IMG/VR virus record: IMGVR_UViG_3300044961_000667
Length of the DNA stretch: 64,000 nucleotides
Reading direction: 5' to 3' (one strand)
Origin: a virus
Taxonomy: Duplodnaviria; Caudoviricetes
Shown: piece after piece, positions 2,476 to 41,487 of the stretch
How positions within the stretch are numbered: position 1 is the stretch's first letter
Layout: every line of letters starts with the position of its first letter
The notes under the pieces: model-generated
The model's database searches: none
What the model saw: the letters and a program-made list of their open reading frames with translations, nothing else
Told to the model about the DNA's origin: nothing
Made by a program: the position numbers and the translations under genes

Positions 2476-3509
2476 CGCGGGAACTCCTGGATCTGAAGCT
2501 CGGCCGGCCACTCAGCCGGAACGGCACCGTGGTGCTCCTTGAAGAGCACCGAGAAGTACGTCGGCTGGTCCTTCAACGCCTTGCCGTGCATCGGGCCCAT
2601 GCGCCCGCACAGATCGGAGTCGACGTTGCTGATCGGGTTGTCGCCCATCTGCTTCACGAAGGGCGTCACCTTCGCGGCCCTGCACTGCTCGACGATGGAG
2701 CGCGCCCACGAGAGATCGAACGCTCTCGCCTTCGAGCCGCTCTCGCCACCGACGATGACCCAGTGCAGGCCCTGGCCCATCTTCACGTTCGGCACGAACT
2801 GGGCGGTCTTGTCCGCGCACGACGCGCAGAAGCTCTCGCTCTGCTTCGCCGTGGTGTTCGCCGCCTTCCAGTCGTACGCGCACTTCGAGCACTTCCACAG
2901 CTGCCCGAGCCACTTCGACAGGTCCAGCGGTCCCAGCAAGGGCTCGCACGACAGGAACCGCACCGCCGCGGGGACCGACAGCAGCAGCGGGATCCGGACG
3001 TCGGCAGCCTCCTGGTTCTCCACCGTCGTCCCGAGCCACACGTTGGGCGGCGGCGTTCCATCGACCCACGCCTGCAGCCAGTCGACGGTCTCCATCGGCA
3101 CATCAGGAGTCCTGACGAACGCGTCGATCGCAGCCGACAGGTGGCGCTTGATGTTCTGCGGCCTCTTCGTCAACAAGAGCCAGTCCAGGTTGGGCGTGCT
3201 CCTGATCAGGTGGAACAGCTCCAGCCTCCACACGTCGGAGACTTCCTCGTCGAACACGTCGGAGAGGGACGAGCAGAAGACCCTGGGCCTCGTGCCGGCG
3301 AGCTTCGCCTTGCGATCCCACGACAACGGCTTCCGCCAGTTCGACGCGACCGTCCTTCTCCGCGGCGCTCCCTTGCCCCAGTTGCCGCCGTCGAACCGCT
3401 TGTTCCGCGTCTCGGCGTAGCAGTTCGTGCACCCGGCCGAGACCTTCGTGCACCCCTCCCATCCGTTGAACGTGGCATCGCACCAACTGATCGCAGTCGT
3501 GTCACCCAT
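2472..3509 (-). CDS. Phage Gp37/Gp68 (DUF5131) radical-SAM-like protein with inserted Cys4 segment
   Basis: ISWCDATFNGWEGCTKVSAGCTNCYAE, RVFCSSLSDVF, LLLTKRP, NVWLGTTVENQ, RFLSCEPLLG, WVIVGGESG, FVKQMG. Confidence 0.92.
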   Translation of the reverse strand: MGDTTAISWCDATFNGWEGCTKVSAGCTNCYAETRNKRFDGGNWGKGAPRRRTVASNWRKPLSWDRKAKLAGTRPRVFCSSLSDVFDEEVSDVWRLELFHLIRSTPNLDWLLLTKRPQNIKRHLSAAIDAFVRTPDVPMETVDWLQAWVDGTPPPNVWLGTTVENQEAADVRIPLLLSVPAAVRFLSCEPLLGPLDLSKWLGQLWKCSKCAYDWKAANTTAKQSESFCASCADKTAQFVPNVKMGQGLHWVIVGGESGSKARAFDLSWARSIVEQCRAAKVTPFVKQMGDNPISNVDSDLCGRMGPMHGKALKDQPTYFSVLFKEHHGAVPAEWPAELQIQEFPR

Positions 3510-4893
3510 GCAGTTTCTCCATCCTGGTTTTCAAGTCCTCGTACCGCGCCATCCATCGGGCTCGCGTTTGCCGCCAGTCGGGCCACTCCGAGACATCCAG
3601 GCCGGGCACCTGCTGACCGGTGCCCTGCCACTTCTCGGGACGCTCCTCGATCGGGAACATCACCGTCGCCTCGGTGCCGAACACGTCCATGTCGGCCGTC
3701 TTCACGACGCCATTCATCGGCCATCGGAAGCGGAACTGCTGCGCCAGCGCGTTCATCAGCTTGTCTTCGAGCGGCGCGTACAGCGGCTTGAGCAACATCT
3801 TCACCGGACTCGGGATGTCCTTCAGCCCGAGCCCCTCGGAGGCGTCGTGGAAGAGGCCGTCCCACGCGCACAGAAGACGCTCCACCTCATCCTTGCCGGC
3901 GAGCTGCTCCGCCCACAGGCTGACGTTGATCGAATGCTGCGCCACTGAGTTGTGGGCCCCGAACCCATCGGCGAAATACGTCCTCGTTGACGTCTCCATT
4001 GCGACTACCGGACCTGGCGAAAGCTCCTCCGCCGCCACAACCTCTAACGTCTCGATGCTCGGAAACTCAAAGGGCGCCGACCCGGCCTTCAGCGCCGTCT
4101 GCAACTTCTGCATGAGACGCACCGGCTTGATGGTCCCAAACAGCCGAAAGACCTCACGCCACCCGCCAAGGACTCGCAGATTCATCACACCAGTCTTCTT
4201 GGACTTCGGGTCGATGCGACAAGCAAATCCGGCCTGTCGAAGAAGACCGCTGGCCGCGTCGAGAACAACACCCGGCTTCTGAGCAAATCCAGTTGTCGTG
4301 CCACGCGACCTGGACCCGGTCGTAACATGACCCTCCCCGTCAAAGATTCCAGCAAGGTATCCGGTCTCGTAGGTACGAACCGTCTTCCATGGAGTAGCAA
4401 ATCTCAGCATGTGAACCCGAAGCCCACCAAGCACAGCGTCGGCTATCTGCCTGGCCGTTCTCCACCTTTGGTTTCTCGACTGCCGCATGGCGATAAGCCA
4501 TGGGTGCTCCACCGACGTCGTAAGACTCGCTCCATCAGACAGCCACAGCCTCACCCTCGGTCGGATGATGATCTCGTGACGGAGAACGTTCGCCAAACGA
4601 AGACGACGACGCGGCTTTGGTCCTCTTCGTTTCGTCGGGAACTCATCGAAAGCAATCAGCCCAGCCCCTGTAGACAGGTCTCCAGCTGGAACCCACCCGA
4701 AATCAGAAGTCAGAACCAACGACTCCGGAGACACACAGTACGGGTACGGCGCCTGCCCTCCGTACCGGGGCTCGATCGACAACCCGTGAGCGATCTGCTC
4801 CGCAGTGAACTCCCCCGGCCTCGGGTCCGCGGGGAAGAACATCCCCGAGTTGAGCAACTGGCACCACGGACCTCTCGAACCCTGAAGCGGCAT
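3502..4893 (-). CDS. HD-domain phosphohydrolase (YfbR-like deoxynucleotidase) interrupted by an intein
   Basis: IAHGLS..RYGG..Y|intein|SVAQHS..LFHDASE; RBS AGAGGGAG. Confidence 0.88.
   Translation of the reverse strand: MPLQGSRGPWCQLLNSGMFFPADPRPGEFTAEQIAHGLSIEPRYGGQAPYPYCVSPESLVLTSDFGWVPAGDLSTGAGLIAFDEFPTKRRGPKPRRRLRLANVLRHEIIIRPRVRLWLSDGASLTTSVEHPWLIAMRQSRNQRWRTARQIADAVLGGLRVHMLRFATPWKTVRTYETGYLAGIFDGEGHVTTGSRSRGTTTGFAQKPGVVLDAASGLLRQAGFACRIDPKSKKTGVMNLRVLGGWREVFRLFGTIKPVRLMQKLQTALKAGSAPFEFPSIETLEVVAAEELSPGPVVAMETSTRTYFADGFGAHNSVAQHSINVSLWAEQLAGKDEVERLLCAWDGLFHDASEGLGLKDIPSPVKMLLKPLYAPLEDKLMNALAQQFRFRWPMNGVVKTADMDVFGTEATVMFPIEERPEKWQGTGQQVPGLDVSEWPDWRQTRARWMARYEDLKTRMEKLHG
3949..4737 (-). 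other. 263-aa intein with LAGLIDADG endonuclease
   Basis: Starts CVSPESLVLT, contains YLAGIFDGEG, ends TYFADGFGAHN followed by Ser(+1). Confidence 0.92.
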
Positions 4894-5488: not shown

Positions 5489-7283
5489 TCAGGCCCTACG
5501 CCCTTCTCCTGGGAACAGGATGTCGCTGGCCCTCATGGTGGCGTGGTGCTCTTCATCGATGAGGCCAGCGCGGCGGAGTGACGACAGGTAGTCGGCGAAC
5601 GTTCCACCCGACACCTCCATCTCAACCATCTCGGCGAGTTCCTCTCGCGTCATCCAGCTCGGGTACGACGCGACCAGCACGTTCAGCATCTTCCTCGCGC
5701 CAGCCTTCAGGTTCCGGCTCCACATGCTCACCAGCTCGTGAGTCGAGGCCGGCGCCGATCGGGCCGCGGGTCCCAGGAACTGCATCCCGGACGCGGAGAT
5801 CTTCAGCGACTGAGCGTTCTCCTCCACCAACCCAGCCCGACGGAGCGCCGAGAGGTAGTCGGCGAACGTCCCGCCCGACACCGCCATGCCAACCAGGGTG
5901 GCCAGCTGCGGCCTGGTGGTCCACGCGCCCGGTCGCGCCGAGAGAGCGATCAACATCTCCTTCGCCCCCTTCTTGATCGTCACGTCGCCGATCGCCTGCG
6001 GTCCCGGCCGCGCGTACTGCGCGAGAGCCTTCTTCACCGACTCCGGCAATAGACGAGGCTCCGGTGCGCGGGGGCATCGGGTTGTGCGGCGGGTAGAGCC
6101 CCGGTCCGATCACCTCATGGGGGTTGAAGGCCGGCATCGCCGGTTCGACGTGAGGGCGACCGATTGAACGTGCAATCGATTGCGCAGCATCCTTCGTGTC
6201 GGCAGCCGCACCGGCCAGCTTCTCCGCCGCCTTCTCCAGACGCTTCAGCTGCTTTTCGGTCAACACCGGAACCTCCTTCACGACTTCCTTGATCTGCACC
6301 TTCGTTTCGGTCGGCCGACTCTTCAGCTCGCCTTCCAGCTGAAGAATGCGACGCTTCAGGAAGTCGGGGTCTGCCTTCTCGGCGTCCTCCACCATCGACT
6401 TCAACGACTCACGCAGCTTGGCGACGTCCACCGCGGCCAGCCTCTTCGGCTCGACGAACTCCTCGCCGAACTCCGGCGTGGCCGACGAGTCGAACGTCAG
6501 CTTCCGGTTCACCTTCACCGTCCGCGACACCTTCAGAAACGACGGGCTCCACAGGTGCGCCATCCCCGTGTCGAGCCCTGGCAGGGTGTCAACCAGACTC
6601 AGTTCTTCCGCCTTCGTCACCTTGTCGCTGACCCACGCGATGATCGCCTTCTTCTCGTGGCTGCCGATCGTGCGGTGAGCGAGCACTGTCCCTGCCTGGT
6701 TCAACACCCGCTTGTGCACCGCCTGCGGCTGCTGAGTGATCAAGGACCAGCCGACGCCGTAGTTGCGCCCGAGCTTCAACAGCCGCTCAACTCGGTTGAG
6801 CATGACGCCTTCGTCCTTCTCGGGCGTCTGAGGGGCGAACGTCTGCGCTTCCTCCCAGAAGACGTGCACCGGCGACTTCGACTTCTTCTTGGCCTGGAAG
6901 AACGCCTCGGCGAAGTCTCGAACGAACCGCTTCGTCTCCGCCGTGGTGAACTCCGACACGTCGAGCACCGCGGAGATCTGCTTCTCCACGAGCACGCTGG
7001 CCATCAGCCCGCCCTACTCTGGCGTGAGCGGCAGATCGCCATGCTCCCCGCCAAAGACTGTGATCGCGAACCCATCCTTCTTGCCGTCCGCAGAGCTTCG
7101 CAGCCCCCACCAGACGCCCACGGGATCAAGAGCGCCAACCTGCGCCCCGACCTCCAGCATCAGCTCGGCCAACTTGGTCGCGGAGTACGTCTTGCCGCCG
7201 CCGCTTTGCCCCAGGAAGGCGAACTTCTGCGTCACAGCTGCCAGCGGCAGCCCCAACCCATCTGCAAACGCGAGCGTCTTCAT
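5489..7283 (-). pseudogene. HerA/DUF87-like P-loop ATPase with two C-terminal winged-HTH repeats, broken by an in-frame TAG (7014-7016) and a +1 frameshift near 6070-6074
   Basis: FAFLGQSGGGKTY, LDPVGVWWGLR, VFWEEAQTFAPQ, GRNYGVG..ITQQPQAVHK; tandem SGGTFADYLS.LRRAGL repeats in a second frame. Confidence 0.8.
6171..6184. repeat. TGCAATCGATTGCG palindromic site, copy 1 (coding)
   Basis: Exact match, read directly. Confidence 0.85.
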
Positions 7284-36988: not shown

Positions 36989-37201
36989 CTACCTCCCGAG
37001 GAACTCCGGCGTGTAGAGCATGCGCGTCTTGGCCGGGAACACGGCGTAGTAGTCGCCGTCGGCGTACTTCGTCATCTTCGTGCCGTTGGACGTCTTCTCG
37101 TTCCAGATCTTGTCGGCCTCAGCCCTCGATAGCGGCCCCGACACGTCGATCCACCCGTCAAACATGTCCCACTGCCGCACGATGAACAGTGGCTGACTCA
37201 C
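36989..37201 (-). CDS. Hypothetical protein
   Basis: GTGA-coupled start. Confidence 0.65.
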   Translation of the reverse strand: MSQPLFIVRQWDMFDGWIDVSGPLSRAEADKIWNEKTSNGTKMTKYADGDYYAVFPAKTRMLYTPEFLGR

Positions 37202-37635
37202 CACAGACACTCCTCGATCTTGGAGTACGGGATCGTCTCGCTCGTGATGTAGATCTCGCAGTGCTTCGGGATGGTCGTCCAGCGGACGCCATCCTCCGTG
37301 ATGACCATCTGATCGCACTCAGTGCGCTCCCCGTCGTTGTCGCCGGGGTCCCAGTCGGTCTGGGCAGCCTCGCCCTGATCGACTTTCTCGGTCTCCTCGT
37401 CCGGCGGCACCCCGTACTGGAAGTACCTGGCGTGGTGATCGCCGAAGTACATCTCCCAGAGCGGGTTGCCCCAGTCTCGCCCCTCGGCCTTCTTCTCTTC
37501 CTCGTTCGCCTTCAGGAAGAGCTTCCGCCGGCGGAGGATCGTCTTGGCCAGCTCGGGGCCGACGTCGACCCAGACGTAGTCGATGTCCGCGTTGTAGTTC
37601 TCGTTGTTGCTGTACCCACGCATCAGGAACTTCAT
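37198..37635 (-). CDS. Hypothetical acidic protein
   Basis: RBS GGAGG. Confidence 0.75.
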   Translation of the reverse strand: MKFLMRGYSNNENYNADIDYVWVDVGPELAKTILRRRKLFLKANEEEKKAEGRDWGNPLWEMYFGDHHARYFQYGVPPDEETEKVDQGEAAQTDWDPGDNDGERTECDQMVITEDGVRWTTIPKHCEIYITSETIPYSKIEECLW

Positions 37636-37653
37636 GGCGCCTCCAGGTTGGGG

Positions 37654-37667
37654 TGCAATCGATTGCG
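37654..37667. repeat. TGCAATCGATTGCG palindromic site, copy 5 (intergenic)
   Basis: Exact match. Confidence 0.85.
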
Positions 37668-37675
37668 CATGCGGC

Positions 37676-38014
37676 CTACAGCCCCTTCTTCGAGCGGATG
37701 CGCACCGCGATCTGGGTAAACGGCTTCTTCGGAGTGATGTCGCAGACGCCGATCTTTGGGTCCTCGAAGTCGATCCTCGTGTCGACGATCTCGCCCTTGG
37801 CCGACGTCAGGCCATCGCCATCACCGGCGCCAAAGCCGCGGTTGACGATGATGTGCGCCCAGTACGTGCCGTCGTCGCAGCGAGCCACCTCGATCGCCCC
37901 GCCGGGAAACTCGATGATGTGCTGCGACGACTCGATCTTCTTCGTCTTGTCTCCCAGCAGCTTCACCTTCCTGGGCGCCTTGTCGATGGTCCAGTTCTTC
38001 GCCGTGTCAGCCAT
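37676..38014 (-). CDS. Hypothetical protein
   Basis: MADTAKNW.., RBS AGGAG. Confidence 0.75.
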   Translation of the reverse strand: MADTAKNWTIDKAPRKVKLLGDKTKKIESSQHIIEFPGGAIEVARCDDGTYWAHIIVNRGFGAGDGDGLTSAKGEIVDTRIDFEDPKIGVCDITPKKPFTQIAVRIRSKKGL

Positions 38015-38507
38015 GTTCGCTCTCCTGTTTGGTCGCCCAATTTTCTTTCGACAGCACTCTCTGGACCTGGGTGTGACTGACGCCAAACTCTCGTCCAAGA
38101 CTGGCCATCGAACGACCGCCCAGCCCGTAAAGCAGCCTGACCCGATCAACATCGGCCGCCGCCAATTTGGCCCGTCCATTGGCTTCACCCGGAGACGGTC
38201 TTCCGGCCTTGGTTCGCCCTTTCCTGTTTCGATCTGCGGCGTTGTCGGCCTTCGACCCAAGGAAGAGGTGTCTCGGATTCACACATGGCCTGTTGTCGCA
38301 ACGATGAAGCACGCAAAGGCCGGGCGGAATCTCCCCATTCGACAAACGCCACGCGACACGATGCGCATACTCCCACCCGCTTCCGGCTGGGCCCTTGCCG
38401 ATCTTCCCGTAGCCGGTGGACTTCTGAATCGAACCAGTCCACAGCCAGCATTCATCAATGCCGCGACGGACGAACTTGGCCTCGAACCTCTGAGACAGAT
38501 TCGTCAT
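38007..38507 (-). CDS. HNH homing endonuclease (HNH_3 type) with C-terminal HTH
   Basis: CWLWTGS..GYG..AHRVAW..VLHRCDNRPCVNPRHL.LGSKADN. Confidence 0.92.
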   Translation of the reverse strand: MTNLSQRFEAKFVRRGIDECWLWTGSIQKSTGYGKIGKGPAGSGWEYAHRVAWRLSNGEIPPGLCVLHRCDNRPCVNPRHLFLGSKADNAADRNRKGRTKAGRPSPGEANGRAKLAAADVDRVRLLYGLGGRSMASLGREFGVSHTQVQRVLSKENWATKQESEHG

Positions 38508-39367: not shown

Positions 39368-39950
39368 AATAGCGGCTGCCGTTCATTTTCAGGTGCTCCT
39401 CGACCAGGAGGATCGCCTCTCGCACGATCAGCGGAGCGACTCCGTCCGGGGGCATCTCGCCGTACGGCTTCATCATCACCGCGGACAGCATCTGATCCGC
39501 GCCTCGGCGTGCCTGGCCGGCTTCCGACTGGTGGAAGGAGTAGGACAGGTCGCCGTTCGCCTTGAGGCAGCCGTTGTTGGCCTCGGTCTCGGCCAAGAGC
39601 TGCTTCAGGGTGTCCAACACCTTCAGCAGCGAGACAGACACCTCGATGTAGAAGATCTGCGCCGCCACCACCGCGCGCTTGAGATCGACCTCCGTCTCAC
39701 ACAGCTCGCGGTTGATGTCGCCCTCACAGTACGTCAGGAGCGCGAAACGTCCGTCGCTCAGCTTGCCGTAGCTCACCTGGCAATAGGGCTCCTGGTTCGT
39801 CTCGATCGAGCCCAGTCGGGCCGCCTTCTCCCAGCCGAACCAGAAGTCGTGCGACCCGAGGCCGTCGCAGACGAAGCCCCTCTCCAGCTTGTTGCCGACG
39901 AGCGTCCGACGCCCGGTGTCCTCGAACTTCACGTTCACGTTCAGCTTCAT
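39360..39950 (-). CDS. Hypothetical protein
   Basis: MKLNVNVKF..; GC3-rich codons. Confidence 0.7.
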   Translation of the reverse strand: MKLNVNVKFEDTGRRTLVGNKLERGFVCDGLGSHDFWFGWEKAARLGSIETNQEPYCQVSYGKLSDGRFALLTYCEGDINRELCETEVDLKRAVVAAQIFYIEVSVSLLKVLDTLKQLLAETEANNGCLKANGDLSYSFHQSEAGQARRGADQMLSAVMMKPYGEMPPDGVAPLIVREAILLVEEHLKMNGSRYSS

Positions 39951-39960
39951 GCGCAGGCCC

Positions 39961-40152
39961 TCACAGCGGTGACTTTGCCTTCCTCTCGATCTTGGTCTCG
40001 ACGCCAATCGTCGACGCACAGCTGCAGTGCCTCAGCTCCAGCTTGTAGTGCTCGGCGTCTTCCTCGGTCAGGATCTCCCCGCAGAGCGGCAGCTTCAGCC
40101 ACTCCTCTTCGGAGAACGTCCTGCCGCAGCTGCACGTCTTGAACGTCTTCAT
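39961..40152 (-). CDS. Small Cys-rich hypothetical protein
   Basis: CSCG..LELRHCSCAST. Confidence 0.65.
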   Translation of the reverse strand: MKTFKTCSCGRTFSEEEWLKLPLCGEILTEEDAEHYKLELRHCSCASTIGVETKIERKAKSPL

Positions 40153-40174
40153 CGAAGAGCCCCCTTCCATCGAA

Positions 40175-40293
40175 GGATCACCTGCCGATTTGAACGGCAG
40201 TCCCCACCCAGTTGGGGCGATTTCGAGGGCGCCTGACCACTGGGAAAGGGCGCTCCCCTACTCTCACGGATGTCCACTCCGTCTTCGGTGATC
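40175..40293 (-). ncRNA. tRNA-like structured RNA (non-canonical, 119 nt)
   Basis: 7-bp acceptor GAUCACC/GGUGAUC, T arm UGCCG-UUCAAAU-CGGCA, D-like arm ACGGA-GUGGACA-UCCGU; central region enlarged; no CCA. Confidence 0.7.
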
Positions 40294-40307
40294 ATTTTCA
40301 GCCAGCC

Positions 40308-40781
40308 TCAGAAGTCGGCCTCGCGGGCCTCGTCGATCTTCGAGTCGATGTAGTCGTCGTACGCGGCCTCGGCTGCTTCCTGGGCCGCTTCGATCGCACG
40401 CTCCTGCATCTCCTCCAGCAGCTTCTTGGGCGTGTTCTTCTCCAAGTCCTCACGCCGGCGCACGCGCACGTACTTGCCGCGGCGGTTCGACGGGATCAAC
40501 CCCGCGTTCTCCGGCGGCACTGGGAAGCTGGCCTCCGGAGACTCGTACCTCGGGGTTGGCGAGGGCACGAACTCCAGCTGCCAGATCCCCGTGATGTCGA
40601 CATCATCGGGCTCAGGCGGGTAGCAGTCCTCAGGCGGACCAGACGTTCGACCCGGCGAGCCAAACGCCACGTCGGCTTCGACCTCCAGCTCGACCTCCAC
40701 CATCTCGCCGTTCACCGTCTCCTCGATGGTGGTCGAGAACTCGACGCTGTGGCTCCCCTTGCGCTGGAACTTCTTCACCAT
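40308..40781 (-). CDS. Hypothetical acidic protein
   Basis: CYPPEPDDV..I motif. Confidence 0.7.
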   Translation of the reverse strand: MVKKFQRKGSHSVEFSTTIEETVNGEMVEVELEVEADVAFGSPGRTSGPPEDCYPPEPDDVDITGIWQLEFVPSPTPRYESPEASFPVPPENAGLIPSNRRGKYVRVRRREDLEKNTPKKLLEEMQERAIEAAQEAAEAAYDDYIDSKIDEAREADF

Positions 40782-40809
40782 GGCTCTCTCGCTCTCTGAT
40801 TGAGGAACT

Positions 40810-41487
40810 TCATTCTGCGCGGGACGATGCCTCGCCCGCGGCAGTCTCGACTTTCGTTGGAGGTGGGAGAGCCTGGACGCCGAACAGCGTCGCCATGCCG
40901 GCGTACTCCTCGTACCCCACGAAGAAGAAGAAGCCGTTGTCCAACTCCAGCCAGCCGACGGCTTCCATGTCGTGCTTGGACGCTGGATCGAGGGCAGCCG
41001 AGAAGCCGCAGCCTCGCTTCAGTTCGATCTTGTCGAGCGCCAGCTCGCGAATCCGATCGGGCACTTCCGCCTGATGCTCACGCCGGCAGATGACGTAGAC
41101 GACAGCGTCCTCCTGTCGCCCAGGCTTGGTCTTCTTCGCGCGTGGCGGCTTCTTGCCCACCGCCTTGAACTTCTGGATCTCCAGCCGCCGAGCCTGACGT
41201 GCCATGTGCTCGTGCGCCCAGTTCGCCTTGATCTGCGAGCGCTTCAGCTTCAGCTCGAAGGTGACGAGCTTCTCGTGATCGTTGTGCAACGCCCCGAGGC
41301 ACTCTGGGATCGTCCCGAACTCGTACTCCGCGGCGCCCATGTAGTGGAGGTTGCACACCGACTGGATGGCCTCCCACCCGGCCTTCGACATGGCGATCAT
41401 CCCGCCGCCGAAGACCCGACTCATCTGCGCGTGCCACTCGCTCTCCGGCTTTCGATCCAGCCGCTGCGCAAGGTACGTCTCCTTCAC
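40810..41487 (-). CDS. Hypothetical protein
   Basis: YMGAAEYEFG, WLELDN motifs. Confidence 0.75.
   Translation of the reverse strand: MKETYLAQRLDRKPESEWHAQMSRVFGGGMIAMSKAGWEAIQSVCNLHYMGAAEYEFGTIPECLGALHNDHEKLVTFELKLKRSQIKANWAHEHMARQARRLEIQKFKAVGKKPPRAKKTKPGRQEDAVVYVICRREHQAEVPDRIRELALDKIELKRGCGFSAALDPASKHDMEAVGWLELDNGFFFFVGYEEYAGMATLFGVQALPPPTKVETAAGEASSRAE

What the first reader, a model, noticed from the sequence alone, without database searches (positions are those of the whole stretch)
40175..40293. 119-nt tRNA-like RNA with canonical acceptor, T and D elements but an oversized self-pairing middle
Seen on the minus strand, intergenic: acceptor GAUCACC/GGUGAUC (7 bp) stacked on T arm UGCCG-UUCAAAU-CGGCA with the exact GUUCRANUC signature, and a D-like arm ACGGA-GUGGACA-UCCGU with GG in the loop. 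About 66 nt lie between the D and T arms. They can form two hairpins, GGGG(A)GCGCC(C)U/AGGCGCCCUC and CCCCA/UGGGG, whose loops contain CCCAGU and ACUGGG. These are perfectly complementary, giving either a kissing loop or an alternative long stem. The first loop contains UUCCCAG, similar to a Gly-CCC anticodon loop. There is no U8, no encoded CCA and no Gly identity elements. Established: phages carry tRNAs and tRNA mimics, and host anticodon nucleases and T-loop-reading enzymes recognise these features. Inference: an undescribed tRNA-mimic ncRNA, possibly a decoy for anticodon nucleases or uncharged-tRNA sensors, or an RNase P/Z processing signal in the polycistronic mRNA.
Basis: partly seen in the sequence, partly recalled or inferred. 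Interest (0 to 1): 0.8.

Follow-up and report, generated by a model that had tools for sequence, protein, structure and literature searches.

The report
tRNA-shaped phage RNA without anticodon
A giant phage carries, between two small genes, a 119-base stretch that folds like the top half of a transfer RNA but has two self-pairing hairpins where the decoding arm should be. It is probably a non-decoding tRNA look-alike, but I found no diverged relatives to prove that its shape is under selection.

Summary
Window 40293-40175 (minus strand) folds into a 7-bp acceptor stacked on a 5-bp T arm with GUUCAAAUC. It also has a D-like arm with GG, a 9-bp arm with a 15-nt loop, and a 5-bp hairpin whose 6-nt loop is exactly complementary to CCCAGU in the large loop. 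ARAGORN and Rfam find nothing.

A strict acceptor+T descriptor is expected 0.003 times per shuffled window. In 1.35 Mb of real DNA it hit almost only true tRNAs, so the element is very likely tRNA-derived rather than chance.

It lies in a huge-phage contig, inside an operon. Nine near-identical copies from several metagenomes carry only two substitutions, so covariation cannot be tested, and no diverged homologue was found anywhere.

The element is an accessory module. In sibling strains an Endonuclease VII homing gene occupies exactly its place, and more distant relatives lack it. One RNA-seq library holds the element but not its flanking genes.

An overlapping 48-codon ORF has non-coding codon usage and no homologues.

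Best reading (about 0.5): a non-decoding tRNA mimic that tRNA-processing enzymes can recognise. A decoy function is untested.

This scan noted the same architecture earlier in a Streptomyces-type prophage (e1-3667377).

The parts
40155..40308 (-). The inherited module: the block that is present or absent as a unit among sibling strains. It holds the tRNA-like element plus 15 nt upstream and 20 nt downstream.
   Evidence: Homology with allele C contigs (L004, L006, L007, L083) starts at 40155. Homology with L002 ends at 40304-40308. The RNA-seq contig of run X16 covers 40155-40308.
40287..40293 (-). Acceptor 5' strand, GAUCACC (nt 1-7).
   Evidence: Pair probability 0.79-1.0.
40266..40282 (-). 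D-like arm: 5-bp stem ACGGA/UCCGU and 7-nt loop GUGGACA containing GG (nt 12-28). It follows a 4-nt connector, GAAG, where a tRNA has U8-N9.
40225..40258 (-). Long arm in the anticodon-arm position (nt 36-69): 9 bp with a bulged A40 and a G37.U68 pair, and a 15-nt loop, CUUUCCCAGUGGUCA. The two natural substitutions, G39>A (40255) and C69>U (40225), lie in this stem.
40239..40244 (-). CCCAGU (nt 50-55) in the large loop, complementary to loop 2.
   Evidence: Duplex energy -9.2 kcal/mol.
40202..40217 (-). Second hairpin, in the variable-arm position (nt 77-92): CCCCA/UGGGG with 6-nt loop ACUGGG (40207-40212).
40183..40199 (-). T arm (nt 95-111): UGCCG/CGGCA with loop UUCAAAU. GUUCAAAUC fits GTTCRANYC.
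40175..40182 (-). Acceptor 3' strand, GGUGAUC (nt 112-118), and discriminator-position C119. No CCA follows.
40163..40176 (-). Small hairpin CCUUC-GAUG-GAAGG immediately 3' of the element. Its 3' strand is part of the Shine-Dalgarno region (GGAAGGGGG) of the zinc-finger gene.
   Evidence: Fold with flanks and the sequence.
39961..40152 (-). Downstream gene: a 63-aa CxC...CxC zinc-ribbon-like protein. Its start is ATG 40152, as in relatives.
40308..40781 (-). Upstream gene in this window, 157 aa, no known family. In sibling strains two further genes (255 aa and 187 aa) lie between it and the element.
40149..40295 (-). Overlapping 48-codon ORF (rival reading). Its stop TGA overlaps the ATG of the zinc-finger gene (ATGA).
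   Evidence: Sequence. GC3 is 0.60 against 0.889 in genes. No protein relatives.

Best explanation
The element is a tRNA-derived, non-decoding structured RNA, that is, a tRNA mimic, embedded in a polycistronic operon of a huge phage.

Shown: the sequence can form a tRNA-type upper half, namely an acceptor/T coaxial minihelix and a D-like loop with GG facing a canonical T loop. It has no 5-bp stem with a 7-nt anticodon loop. In that place are a long arm and a short hairpin whose loops are exactly complementary.

Inferred:
- The two loops kiss and lock the lower half into a compact body that cannot read codons.
- The upper half is the part that RNase P, RNase Z or 3' exonucleases, and the CCA-adding enzyme recognise. 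The element would therefore be cut out of the operon transcript. That would yield a stable RNA of about 119 nt, and a downstream mRNA that starts about 20 nt before the zinc-finger gene's start codon.
- It is an accessory function, dispensable for the phage. Sibling strains carry an Endonuclease VII homing gene in exactly its place, and more distant relatives lack it.
- What the released RNA binds is unknown. A host tRNA-binding or tRNA-cleaving factor is the most natural guess.
For: - Fold and helix probabilities.
- The descriptor is expected 0.0033 times per window, and 0 of 600 with the D arm.
- In 1.35 Mb of real DNA the same descriptor hits only tRNAs and two elements in a phage tRNA array.
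- All 31 pairs are intact, with one G.U and one bulge. That is unlike a decaying pseudogene.
- The 6-nt loop-loop complementarity has roughly a 0.002-0.004 chance for loops of these sizes (my estimate from the sequence; duplex energy).
- There is no terminator or promoter pattern.
- The overlying ORF has non-coding codon usage and no homologues.
- The element is inherited as a discrete module in two upstream contexts, across metagenomes from 12 studies.
- RNA-seq run X16 holds all sampled words of the element and none of the flanking genes.
- RNase P is known to process non-tRNA substrates, including phage RNAs and mRNAs (PMC11143913).
Against: - There is no covariation evidence. Nine copies differ at two positions: C69>U keeps a G.U pair and G39>A breaks G39-C66.
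- The element is no better conserved than the neighbouring 196-aa gene.
- No diverged homologue turned up in IMG/VR, JGI metagenome contigs, GTDB genomes, the nearest huge phage, four Caulobacter/Brevundimonas giant phages or 151 Actinomycetes genomes.
- The folding energy is not exceptional.
- The D region is non-canonical: a 4-nt connector, no U8, and a 7-nt linker after the D arm.
- The X16 contig has depth 2.9 and runs 28 nt beyond the 5' end and 20 nt beyond the 3' end. It therefore shows presence in an RNA library, not a processed RNA.
- Loss of the element in sibling strains shows it is dispensable.
Confidence: 0.5

Rival explanations
1. A tRNA-derived relic with no present function. 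On this reading a former phage tRNA gene, or a copy of one, was remodelled by insertions. It now sits as neutral spacer DNA in a hypervariable cassette site, and it is young enough for its stems still to be intact.
For: - It is restricted to strains at least 97% identical and is absent from more distant relatives (L003, L008).
- It is replaced by a homing endonuclease gene in siblings without apparent harm.
- It is not conserved above its neighbours.
- One natural variant breaks a base pair.
Against: - Five perfect helices plus an exact 6-nt loop-loop match are not what remodelling by random insertion gives.
- It has no recognisable similarity to any tRNA. The Rfam tRNA model gives no hit even at E = 10.
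- It is preferentially present in an RNA library.
Confidence: 0.2
2. A DNA-level feature only. On this reading the stretch matters as the homing or recognition site of the Endonuclease VII-type homing endonuclease found in its place in sibling strains, or as a recombination joint between cassettes, and any RNA fold is incidental.
For: - The EndoVII gene of allele C occupies exactly the element's position.
- Allele C comes with a diverged 3' end of the upstream 186-aa gene and a cluster of changes in the first codons of the zinc-finger gene. This looks like a co-conversion tract.
- Homing genes sitting among phage tRNA genes are known, for example T4 SegB (PMC2330249).
Against: - A homing site needs 15-40 bp, not 119 nt of tRNA-shaped sequence.
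- Homing endonucleases typically target sequences conserved for another reason, so this reading is compatible with the RNA being functional rather than an alternative to it.
- No cleavage data exist.
Confidence: 0.1
3. A small protein gene: the 48-codon ORF 40295-40149, translationally coupled to the zinc-finger gene through an ATGA overlap.
For: - The frame is open across the whole gap.
- It begins 2 nt after the upstream stop codon in allele B and ends in ATGA on the next start.
Against: - GC3 is 0.60 against 0.889 +/- 0.08 in the window's genes. Only 2.3% of 48-codon gene windows are that low.
- The codon log-odds score is -0.14 against +1.08 for genes.
- There is no Shine-Dalgarno sequence.
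- Both natural substitutions are non-synonymous and radical, Gly>Glu and Ser>Leu.
- A search of 1.84 billion representative proteins gave only two low-complexity matches, to proteins of over 1000 aa.
Confidence: 0.07
4. A cis-acting leader only. On this reading the structure regulates translation or stability of the zinc-finger mRNA and produces no separate RNA. The hairpin over the Shine-Dalgarno region, or pairing of loop CCCUUUCC with GGAAGGGG, would do this.
For: - The element ends 22 nt before the start codon.
- A small hairpin covers part of the Shine-Dalgarno sequence.
- Nt 44-51 are complementary to the Shine-Dalgarno sequence (read).
Against: - Allele C expresses the same gene without the element, behind a 4-nt spacer.
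- A leader does not need an acceptor/T/D architecture.
Confidence: 0.08
5. Pure chance: a GC-rich spacer that happens to fold like a cloverleaf.
For: - The energy z-scores are weak.
- A scan of a very large number of windows (the notes index spans some 250,000) will meet rare coincidences. My estimate is of the order of 1e-4 per window with the D arm.
Against: - The descriptor statistics.
- The location between genes in a phage that has its own tRNA array, according to unchecked notes of this scan.
- The additional exact loop-loop match.
Confidence: 0.05

Closest known systems
Class II tRNAs (Ser, Leu, bacterial Tyr; Rfam RF00005)
   Same: - A 7-bp acceptor stacked on a 5-bp T arm with a canonical T loop.
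- A D loop with GG.
- An extra hairpin between the anticodon-side arm and the T arm, giving a five-helix junction.
   Different: - No U8, and a 4-nt rather than 2-nt connector.
- A 7-nt linker after the D arm.
- A 9-bp arm with a 15-nt loop instead of 5 bp with 7 nt, so there is no anticodon.
- A 7-nt linker before the extra hairpin.
- It is 119 nt long.
- Neither ARAGORN nor the Rfam tRNA model detects it.
Earlier notes of this scan: 'anticodon-less tRNA-shaped phage RNA with kissing loops' in a Streptomyces-type prophage (e1-3667377), and tRNA-like RNAs with kissing hairpins in the D loop of Caulobacter/Brevundimonas giant phages (e1-4037082, e1-4039732)
   Same: - From the notes' wording: about 118-119 nt, with intact acceptor, D and T arms and two arms whose loops pair with each other.
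- The host phages of the second group are distant relatives of this phage.
   Different: - No sequence relationship was detectable. The word look-up finds only this stretch.
- The covariance model R1 finds nothing in four of those giant phages or in 151 Actinomycetes genomes.
- In the Caulobacter group the extra hairpins sit in the D loop and an anticodon arm is kept.
- These are unpublished AI notes, not an established family.
tmRNA tRNA-like domain, and YrlA (bacterial Y RNA with a tRNA-like module)
   Same: They are non-decoding RNAs that keep an acceptor/T/D 'elbow' recognised by tRNA enzymes.
   Different: - tmRNA: no tag reading frame, no G3:U70 and no ARAGORN tmRNA call.
- YrlA (from my own knowledge): its RNA ends lie in the Ro-binding stem and the acceptor-like stem is closed. 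Here the ends form the acceptor.
- There is no Rfam hit for either.
Non-tRNA substrates of RNase P in bacteria and phages (pre-4.5S RNA, P1/P7 C4 antisense RNA, phage M3 RNA, intercistronic sites in operon mRNAs)
   Same: A structured element inside a longer transcript that mimics the acceptor/T minihelix and so could direct endonucleolytic processing (PMC11143913).
   Different: Those substrates mostly mimic only the minihelix. This one also has a D-like arm and a full T loop. Cleavage has not been tested here.

Membership tests
Canonical tRNA (RF00005) | 7-bp acceptor stem directly stacked on a 5-bp T stem, with T loop GTTCRANYC | tested here: met
Canonical tRNA (RF00005) | 5-bp anticodon stem with a 7-nt loop (U33, anticodon at 34-36) | tested here: not met
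   It has a 9-bp stem with a 15-nt loop. No pairing can trim the loop to 7 nt around UUCCCAG.
Canonical tRNA (RF00005) | U8, a 2-nt connector, a 3-4-bp D stem, and a single nucleotide at position 26 | tested here: not met
   Position 8 is G. The connector is 4 nt (GAAG), the D stem 5 bp, and the linker after it 7 nt.
Canonical tRNA (RF00005) | Recognised by ARAGORN or the Rfam tRNA covariance model | tested here: not met
   ARAGORN finds no genes. Rfam gives no hit at gathering threshold or at E = 10. With introns allowed, ARAGORN gives only an implausible tRNA-Ala that reuses the T arm and has a mismatched acceptor.
tmRNA | tRNA-like domain plus a tag reading frame and pseudoknots; G3:U70 | tested here: not met
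   ARAGORN in tmRNA mode finds none. Positions 3:70 are U-A.
YrlA / Y RNA-like | RNA ends in a Ro-binding stem, a closed acceptor-like stem, and linkage to an rsr (Ro) gene | tested here: not met
   The topology is the opposite: the ends form the acceptor. There is no Rfam hit. An rsr gene was not looked for across the whole window.
Intrinsic terminator | GC-rich hairpin followed by a U run | tested here: not met
   none in 39800-40900.
Small protein-coding gene | Open frame with the genome's codon usage and conserved protein relatives | tested here: not met
   The frame is open, but GC3 is 0.60 against 0.889 and there are no true homologues.
Scan-internal class: anticodon-less tRNA-shaped phage RNA with kissing loops (e1-3667377) | Intact acceptor, D and T arms, with the anticodon arm replaced by two arms that have mutually complementary loops | tested here: met
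establish this for the present element.
Scan-internal class: anticodon-less tRNA-shaped phage RNA with kissing loops (e1-3667377) | Sequence or profile homology to the earlier example | not testable with these tools
The word look-up found no look-alike.
Structured RNA under selection (general criterion) | Compensatory base changes in homologues | tested here: inconclusive
   There are only 2 substitutions in 9 copies: one wobble-preserving and one disruptive.

The most novel reading that the evidence does not exclude
The element is matured by RNase P, RNase Z and the CCA-adding enzyme into a stable tRNA mimic. Its Gly-CCC-like loop is masked by an intramolecular GGG 'codon' in the second hairpin. 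It acts as a decoy or sponge for a host tRNA-directed defence factor. Its gene is also the homing target of the Endonuclease VII gene that replaces it in sibling phages. It would then belong to a wider, undescribed class of kissing-loop tRNA mimics in large phages.
Probability: 0.1. Interest if true: 0.8.

Novelty: new variant of a known kind. Interest (0 to 1): 0.45.

Why it matters
Phage tRNAs and tRNA look-alikes are emerging as weapons against bacterial defences that cut or sense tRNAs. HEG-mediated amplification of anti-defence loci against a tRNA-Tyr-cleaving defence is one published case (PMC13096335, abstract seen).

A non-decoding, tRNA-shaped RNA with a self-locked lower half would be a new structural solution. 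If the same architecture recurs in unrelated phages, as other notes of this scan suggest, it would point to a general and so far unannotated class of phage RNA.

The site also shows a homing endonuclease gene and an RNA module as alternative occupants of one position. That makes it a natural system for testing whether homing genes target tRNA-like genes.

As it stands the case rests on anatomy and statistics. There is no evolutionary or biochemical evidence.

Tried and rejected
- **Known RNA families.** ARAGORN in default, tmRNA, intron, mitochondrial and relaxed modes gave nothing credible. Rfam gave nothing at gathering threshold or at E <= 10.
- **DNA similarity to 50,697 phage records.** No match for 701 nt or 10 kb.
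- **Neighbours as anchors.** The 157-aa, 196/219-aa and 187-aa proteins have no relatives in IMG/VR. In the 5.8-billion-protein set they have only near-identical relatives, plus three distant ones (L003, L005, L008). L003 and L008 lack the element, and L005 breaks off before the site.
- **Pattern scans that fix the loops and let the stems vary.**
  - IMG/VR: 21 hits.
  - JGI metagenome contigs: 44 hits.
  - GTDB genomes: 0 hits for the T arm plus acceptor, and 111 for the D-loop/T-loop pattern.
  - All were coding DNA or ordinary tRNA or tmRNA genes.
- **Covariance model R1.**
  - It gave one 19-bit hit in the nearest huge phage, LR745208. That hit lacks the T arm and lies inside a 111-aa ORF, so I rejected it.
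  - It found nothing significant in four Caulobacter/Brevundimonas giant phages.
  - Two weak hits in 151 Actinomycetes genomes lack a T loop. One of them, G036, is an unpublished genome.
- **Remnants in allele C.** I looked for remnants of the element around the EndoVII gene and found none.
- **Other copies in the window.** None.
- **Promoter or terminator.** None.
- **ORF48 as a protein.** Rejected on codon usage and the absence of homologues.
- **tRNA with an intron.** No residual 5-bp/7-nt anticodon arm can be drawn.

Full report
**What is there.** On the minus strand, window 40293-40175 reads as follows.

- A 7-bp Watson-Crick acceptor stem, GAUCACC/GGUGAUC.
- A 4-nt connector, GAAG.
- A 5-bp hairpin, ACGGA/UCCGU, with loop GUGGACA.
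- A 7-nt linker.
- A 9-bp arm with one bulged A, one G.U pair and a 15-nt loop.
- A second 7-nt linker.
- A 5-bp hairpin, CCCCA/UGGGG, with loop ACUGGG.
- Two nucleotides, then a 5-bp T stem, UGCCG/CGGCA, with loop UUCAAAU. This stem abuts the acceptor 3' strand.
- One further C. No CCA follows, and position 8 is G.

The minimum-energy fold is exactly this five-helix junction. All helices have pair probabilities of 0.7-1.0, alone or with 30-nt flanks. CCCAGU in the large loop (nt 50-55) is the exact complement of the whole second loop (nt 82-87), with a duplex energy of -9.2 kcal/mol. A nested alternative that uses this pairing is 4.5 kcal/mol worse than the two-hairpin fold, so a loop-loop kiss is the better reading.

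**Is it more than chance?**

- Folding energy alone says little: z = -2.2 for the element and -0.09 with flanks. That is also true of real tRNAs (from my own knowledge).
- The architecture is far more telling. I used a descriptor of a 7-bp acceptor (at most one G.U), an abutting 5-bp T stem, GTTCRANYC, and a total length of 70-135 nt. It matched once in the window, at this element. It matched 0.0033 times per simulated 64-kb window, and 0 times in 600 when a D arm with GG was also required.
Of these, 54 are ARAGORN tRNAs and the other two lie at the end of a 15-tRNA array of another phage.
- I conclude that the element is tRNA-derived or tRNA-mimicking, not accidental.
- It is not a tRNA. ARAGORN, including its tmRNA and intron modes, finds nothing credible, and Rfam has no hit even at E = 10. 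No 5-bp/7-nt anticodon arm can be drawn.

**Context.**

- The window has about 63% G+C, and nearly all genes are on the minus strand.
- It carries phage genes: an SNF2 helicase of phrog_62, a radical-SAM protein, a dNMP phosphatase interrupted by a LAGLIDADG domain, and an HNH homing gene.
- A 724-aa protein links it distantly (38% identity) to the 485-kb uncultured phage LR745208. It links at about 30% to the giant Caulobacter and Brevundimonas phages. There is no local synteny.
- No whole genome is held for this window.
- The element lies between a 157-aa gene (stop at 40308-40310) and a 63-aa zinc-ribbon-like gene. That gene's start is ATG 40152, preceded by GGAAGGGGG. The same start is used in relatives.

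**Population structure of the site.** Contigs from ENA, Logan and JGI that are 97-99% identical show three alleles.

- **Allele A** (the window): 157-aa gene, element, zinc-finger gene.
- **Allele B**: 157-aa gene, 255-aa gene, 187-aa gene (weak DUF6011 match), element, zinc-finger gene.
  - It is seen in L075-L082 and in runs X6, X9 and X12.
  - A differs from B by a clean 1416-bp deletion between two short repeats (GA-N-GGCT). The two alignment segments overlap at 40304-40308.
  - In B, the last codons and the stop of the 187-aa gene lie in the 14 nt before the element. The stop ends 3 nt before base 1.
- **Allele C**: the same genes, but the element is absent. A 136-aa Endonuclease VII-family gene (Pfam 2.7e-22) with a 53-nt leader occupies its place exactly. 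It is seen in L002, L004, L006, L007 and L083.
  - Homology to the window resumes at 40155, 3 nt before the zinc-finger start.
  - Next to the endonuclease gene, the last 50 or so codons of the upstream gene are strongly diverged. So are the first few codons of the zinc-finger gene, while the rest stays near-identical.
  - This is what a homing event with co-conversion from a more distant donor would leave.
- More distant relatives lack any such gap: L003, with a 52%-identical homologue of the 157-aa protein, and L008, with a 52%-identical homologue of the zinc-finger protein.

The element is therefore a discrete, accessory module of a narrow clade. Within that clade it is widespread: the stretch is held by 20 runs from 12 studies, from bioreactors, wastewater, sludge and hot-spring or microbial mats.

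**Conservation.**

- Across the nine element-bearing sequences there are two substitutions in 119 nt. C69>U turns G36-C69 into G.U. G39>A breaks G39-C66, next to the bulge. There is also a one-base insertion in the A run upstream.
- For comparison, the same set has 9 variable sites in the 192-nt zinc-finger gene and 9 in the 591-nt gene after it.
- This is too little variation to test covariation or purifying selection.
- I found no diverged homologue by any route: anchoring on neighbouring proteins, three loop-anchored pattern scans, and a covariance model run on the nearest phage genomes and on 151 Actinomycetes genomes (see 'Tried and rejected').

**RNA evidence.**

- One transcriptomic library (X16) holds all 11 sampled words of the element. 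It holds only 46% of the words of a 301-nt stretch that includes both flanks.
- When laid, its only true contig is 168 nt at depth 2.9. It covers 40155-40308 plus 14 nt of the allele B upstream gene. Nothing from that run lies on the remaining 1 kb.
- A wastewater metatranscriptome (X18) holds 3 of the 11 element words.
- This hints that the module is more abundant as RNA than its neighbours. However, the contig runs past both predicted mature ends, the depth is very low, and DNA carry-over cannot be excluded.

**The coding rival.**

- A 48-codon frame (40295-40149) spans the gap and ends in ATGA on the zinc-finger start.
- Its GC3 is 0.60 against 0.889 +/- 0.08 for 48-codon windows of the window's genes. 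Its codon log-odds score lies between the coding and off-frame distributions.
- It has no Shine-Dalgarno sequence, and both natural substitutions are radical amino-acid changes.
- An exhaustive HMMER search gave only two low-complexity matches, to very long proteins.
- I give this reading 0.07.

**Most likely mechanism.**

- Shown: the sequence has a tRNA-type acceptor/T minihelix and a D/T elbow, no anticodon loop, and two hairpins with complementary loops. It sits in an operon with no promoter or terminator pattern of its own.
- Inferred: tRNA end-processing enzymes recognise the upper half. Cleavage by them would both release a compact, kissing-loop-locked RNA and separate the upstream cistron from the zinc-finger mRNA.
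  - RNase P is documented to cut non-tRNA substrates, including phage RNAs and operon mRNAs (PMC11143913).
  - The released RNA cannot decode. It would be a mimic that engages some tRNA-binding factor.
The Gly-CCC-like string is in a 15-nt loop, and its CCC is predicted to be paired with GGG of the second loop.
- Loss of the element to a homing endonuclease gene fits a dispensable, conditionally useful function. It also fits the known habit of homing genes to sit among phage tRNA genes (PMC2330249; PMC13096335).

**Relation to earlier notes of this scan.**

- The same stretch was noted twice (e1-5322650).
- The same architecture, about 118 nt with intact acceptor, D and T arms and two arms with pairing loops, was reported for a Streptomyces-type prophage (e1-3667377).
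- tRNA-like RNAs with kissing hairpins in the D loop were reported for giant Caulobacter/Brevundimonas phages (e1-4037082, e1-4039732).
- I could not show homology to either group. These remain parallels, not support.
- Notes on this genome also describe homing endonuclease cassettes that target tRNA and tRNA-like genes (e1-5322588). The EndoVII allele found here agrees with that pattern and was checked directly.

**Verdict.** The element is very probably a tRNA-derived structured module and plausibly a functional non-decoding tRNA mimic (0.5). Neither covariation nor processed ends could be shown, and its function is unknown.

It is a new variant of a known kind, phage tRNA-like RNAs, and matches no curated family. 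I score interest at 0.45. It would rise sharply if processed ends, diverged homologues with compensatory changes, or a link to the other kissing-loop tRNA mimics were shown.

Noticed in passing
L006 1000-1620 (also L004, L007, L083), compared with L075 5700-6000: A free-standing Endonuclease VII-family homing gene (136 aa, TTG start behind AGGAGG) replaces the element in sibling strains. It is flanked by a strongly diverged 3' end of the upstream 186-aa gene and by a cluster of changes in the first codons of the zinc-finger gene. This looks like a co-conversion tract from a more distant donor.
   Followed up: partly
window 40304-40308, compared with L075 4429-5844: The window lacks 1416 bp that sibling strains have: a 255-aa gene and a 187-aa gene with a weak DUF6011 match. 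The junction lies between two short repeats (GA-N-GGCT), as after a microhomology-mediated deletion.
   Followed up: partly
window 40168-40175 and 40150-40157: The 8-nt direct repeat CTTCGATG occurs twice, 18 nt apart, each time ending in an ATG in the zinc-finger frame. The first copy forms the small hairpin that covers part of the Shine-Dalgarno sequence. It may be a duplicated gene start, like the 'stubs' noted elsewhere in this genome.
   Followed up: no
window 3502-4893 (minus strand): This 463-aa protein matches dNMP phosphatase and HD-domain families in its C-terminal part. It also has a LAGLIDADG_3 match at residues 175-240, which suggests an intein or a fused homing endonuclease.
   Followed up: no
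window 38007-38507 (minus strand) and 37077-37677: An HNH_3 homing endonuclease gene with an HTH tail lies 1.5 kb downstream of the element. The 145-aa gene at 37198-37635 is absent from L006 and L007, and the surrounding 2.5 kb is only 90% identical there. This is another cassette hot spot.
   Followed up: no
L019 7920-8041 and 8220-8328 (IMG/VR UViG 3300019378_000961; also L015): An AT-rich phage contig with a 15-tRNA array carries two further oversized elements of 122 and 109 nt. Both have a perfect 7-bp acceptor and a canonical T arm, and ARAGORN does not call them. Upstream at 7187-7235 there is a T-arm-bearing stretch with a long CCCAGU/ACUGGG stem.
   Followed up: partly
L006 498-595: The gap between the 255-aa and 186-aa genes of the sibling strains holds a good sigma-70-like promoter: TTGACG, a 17-nt spacer, then TAGATT.
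   Followed up: no
L084 1501-1614 (LR745208.1 49849-49962): The covariance model gave a 19-bit hit with a similar closing stem, a GAGAG-AGG linker and a CCCCC/GGGGG hairpin, but with no T arm. It lies inside a 111-aa ORF and is taken as chance.
   Followed up: yes
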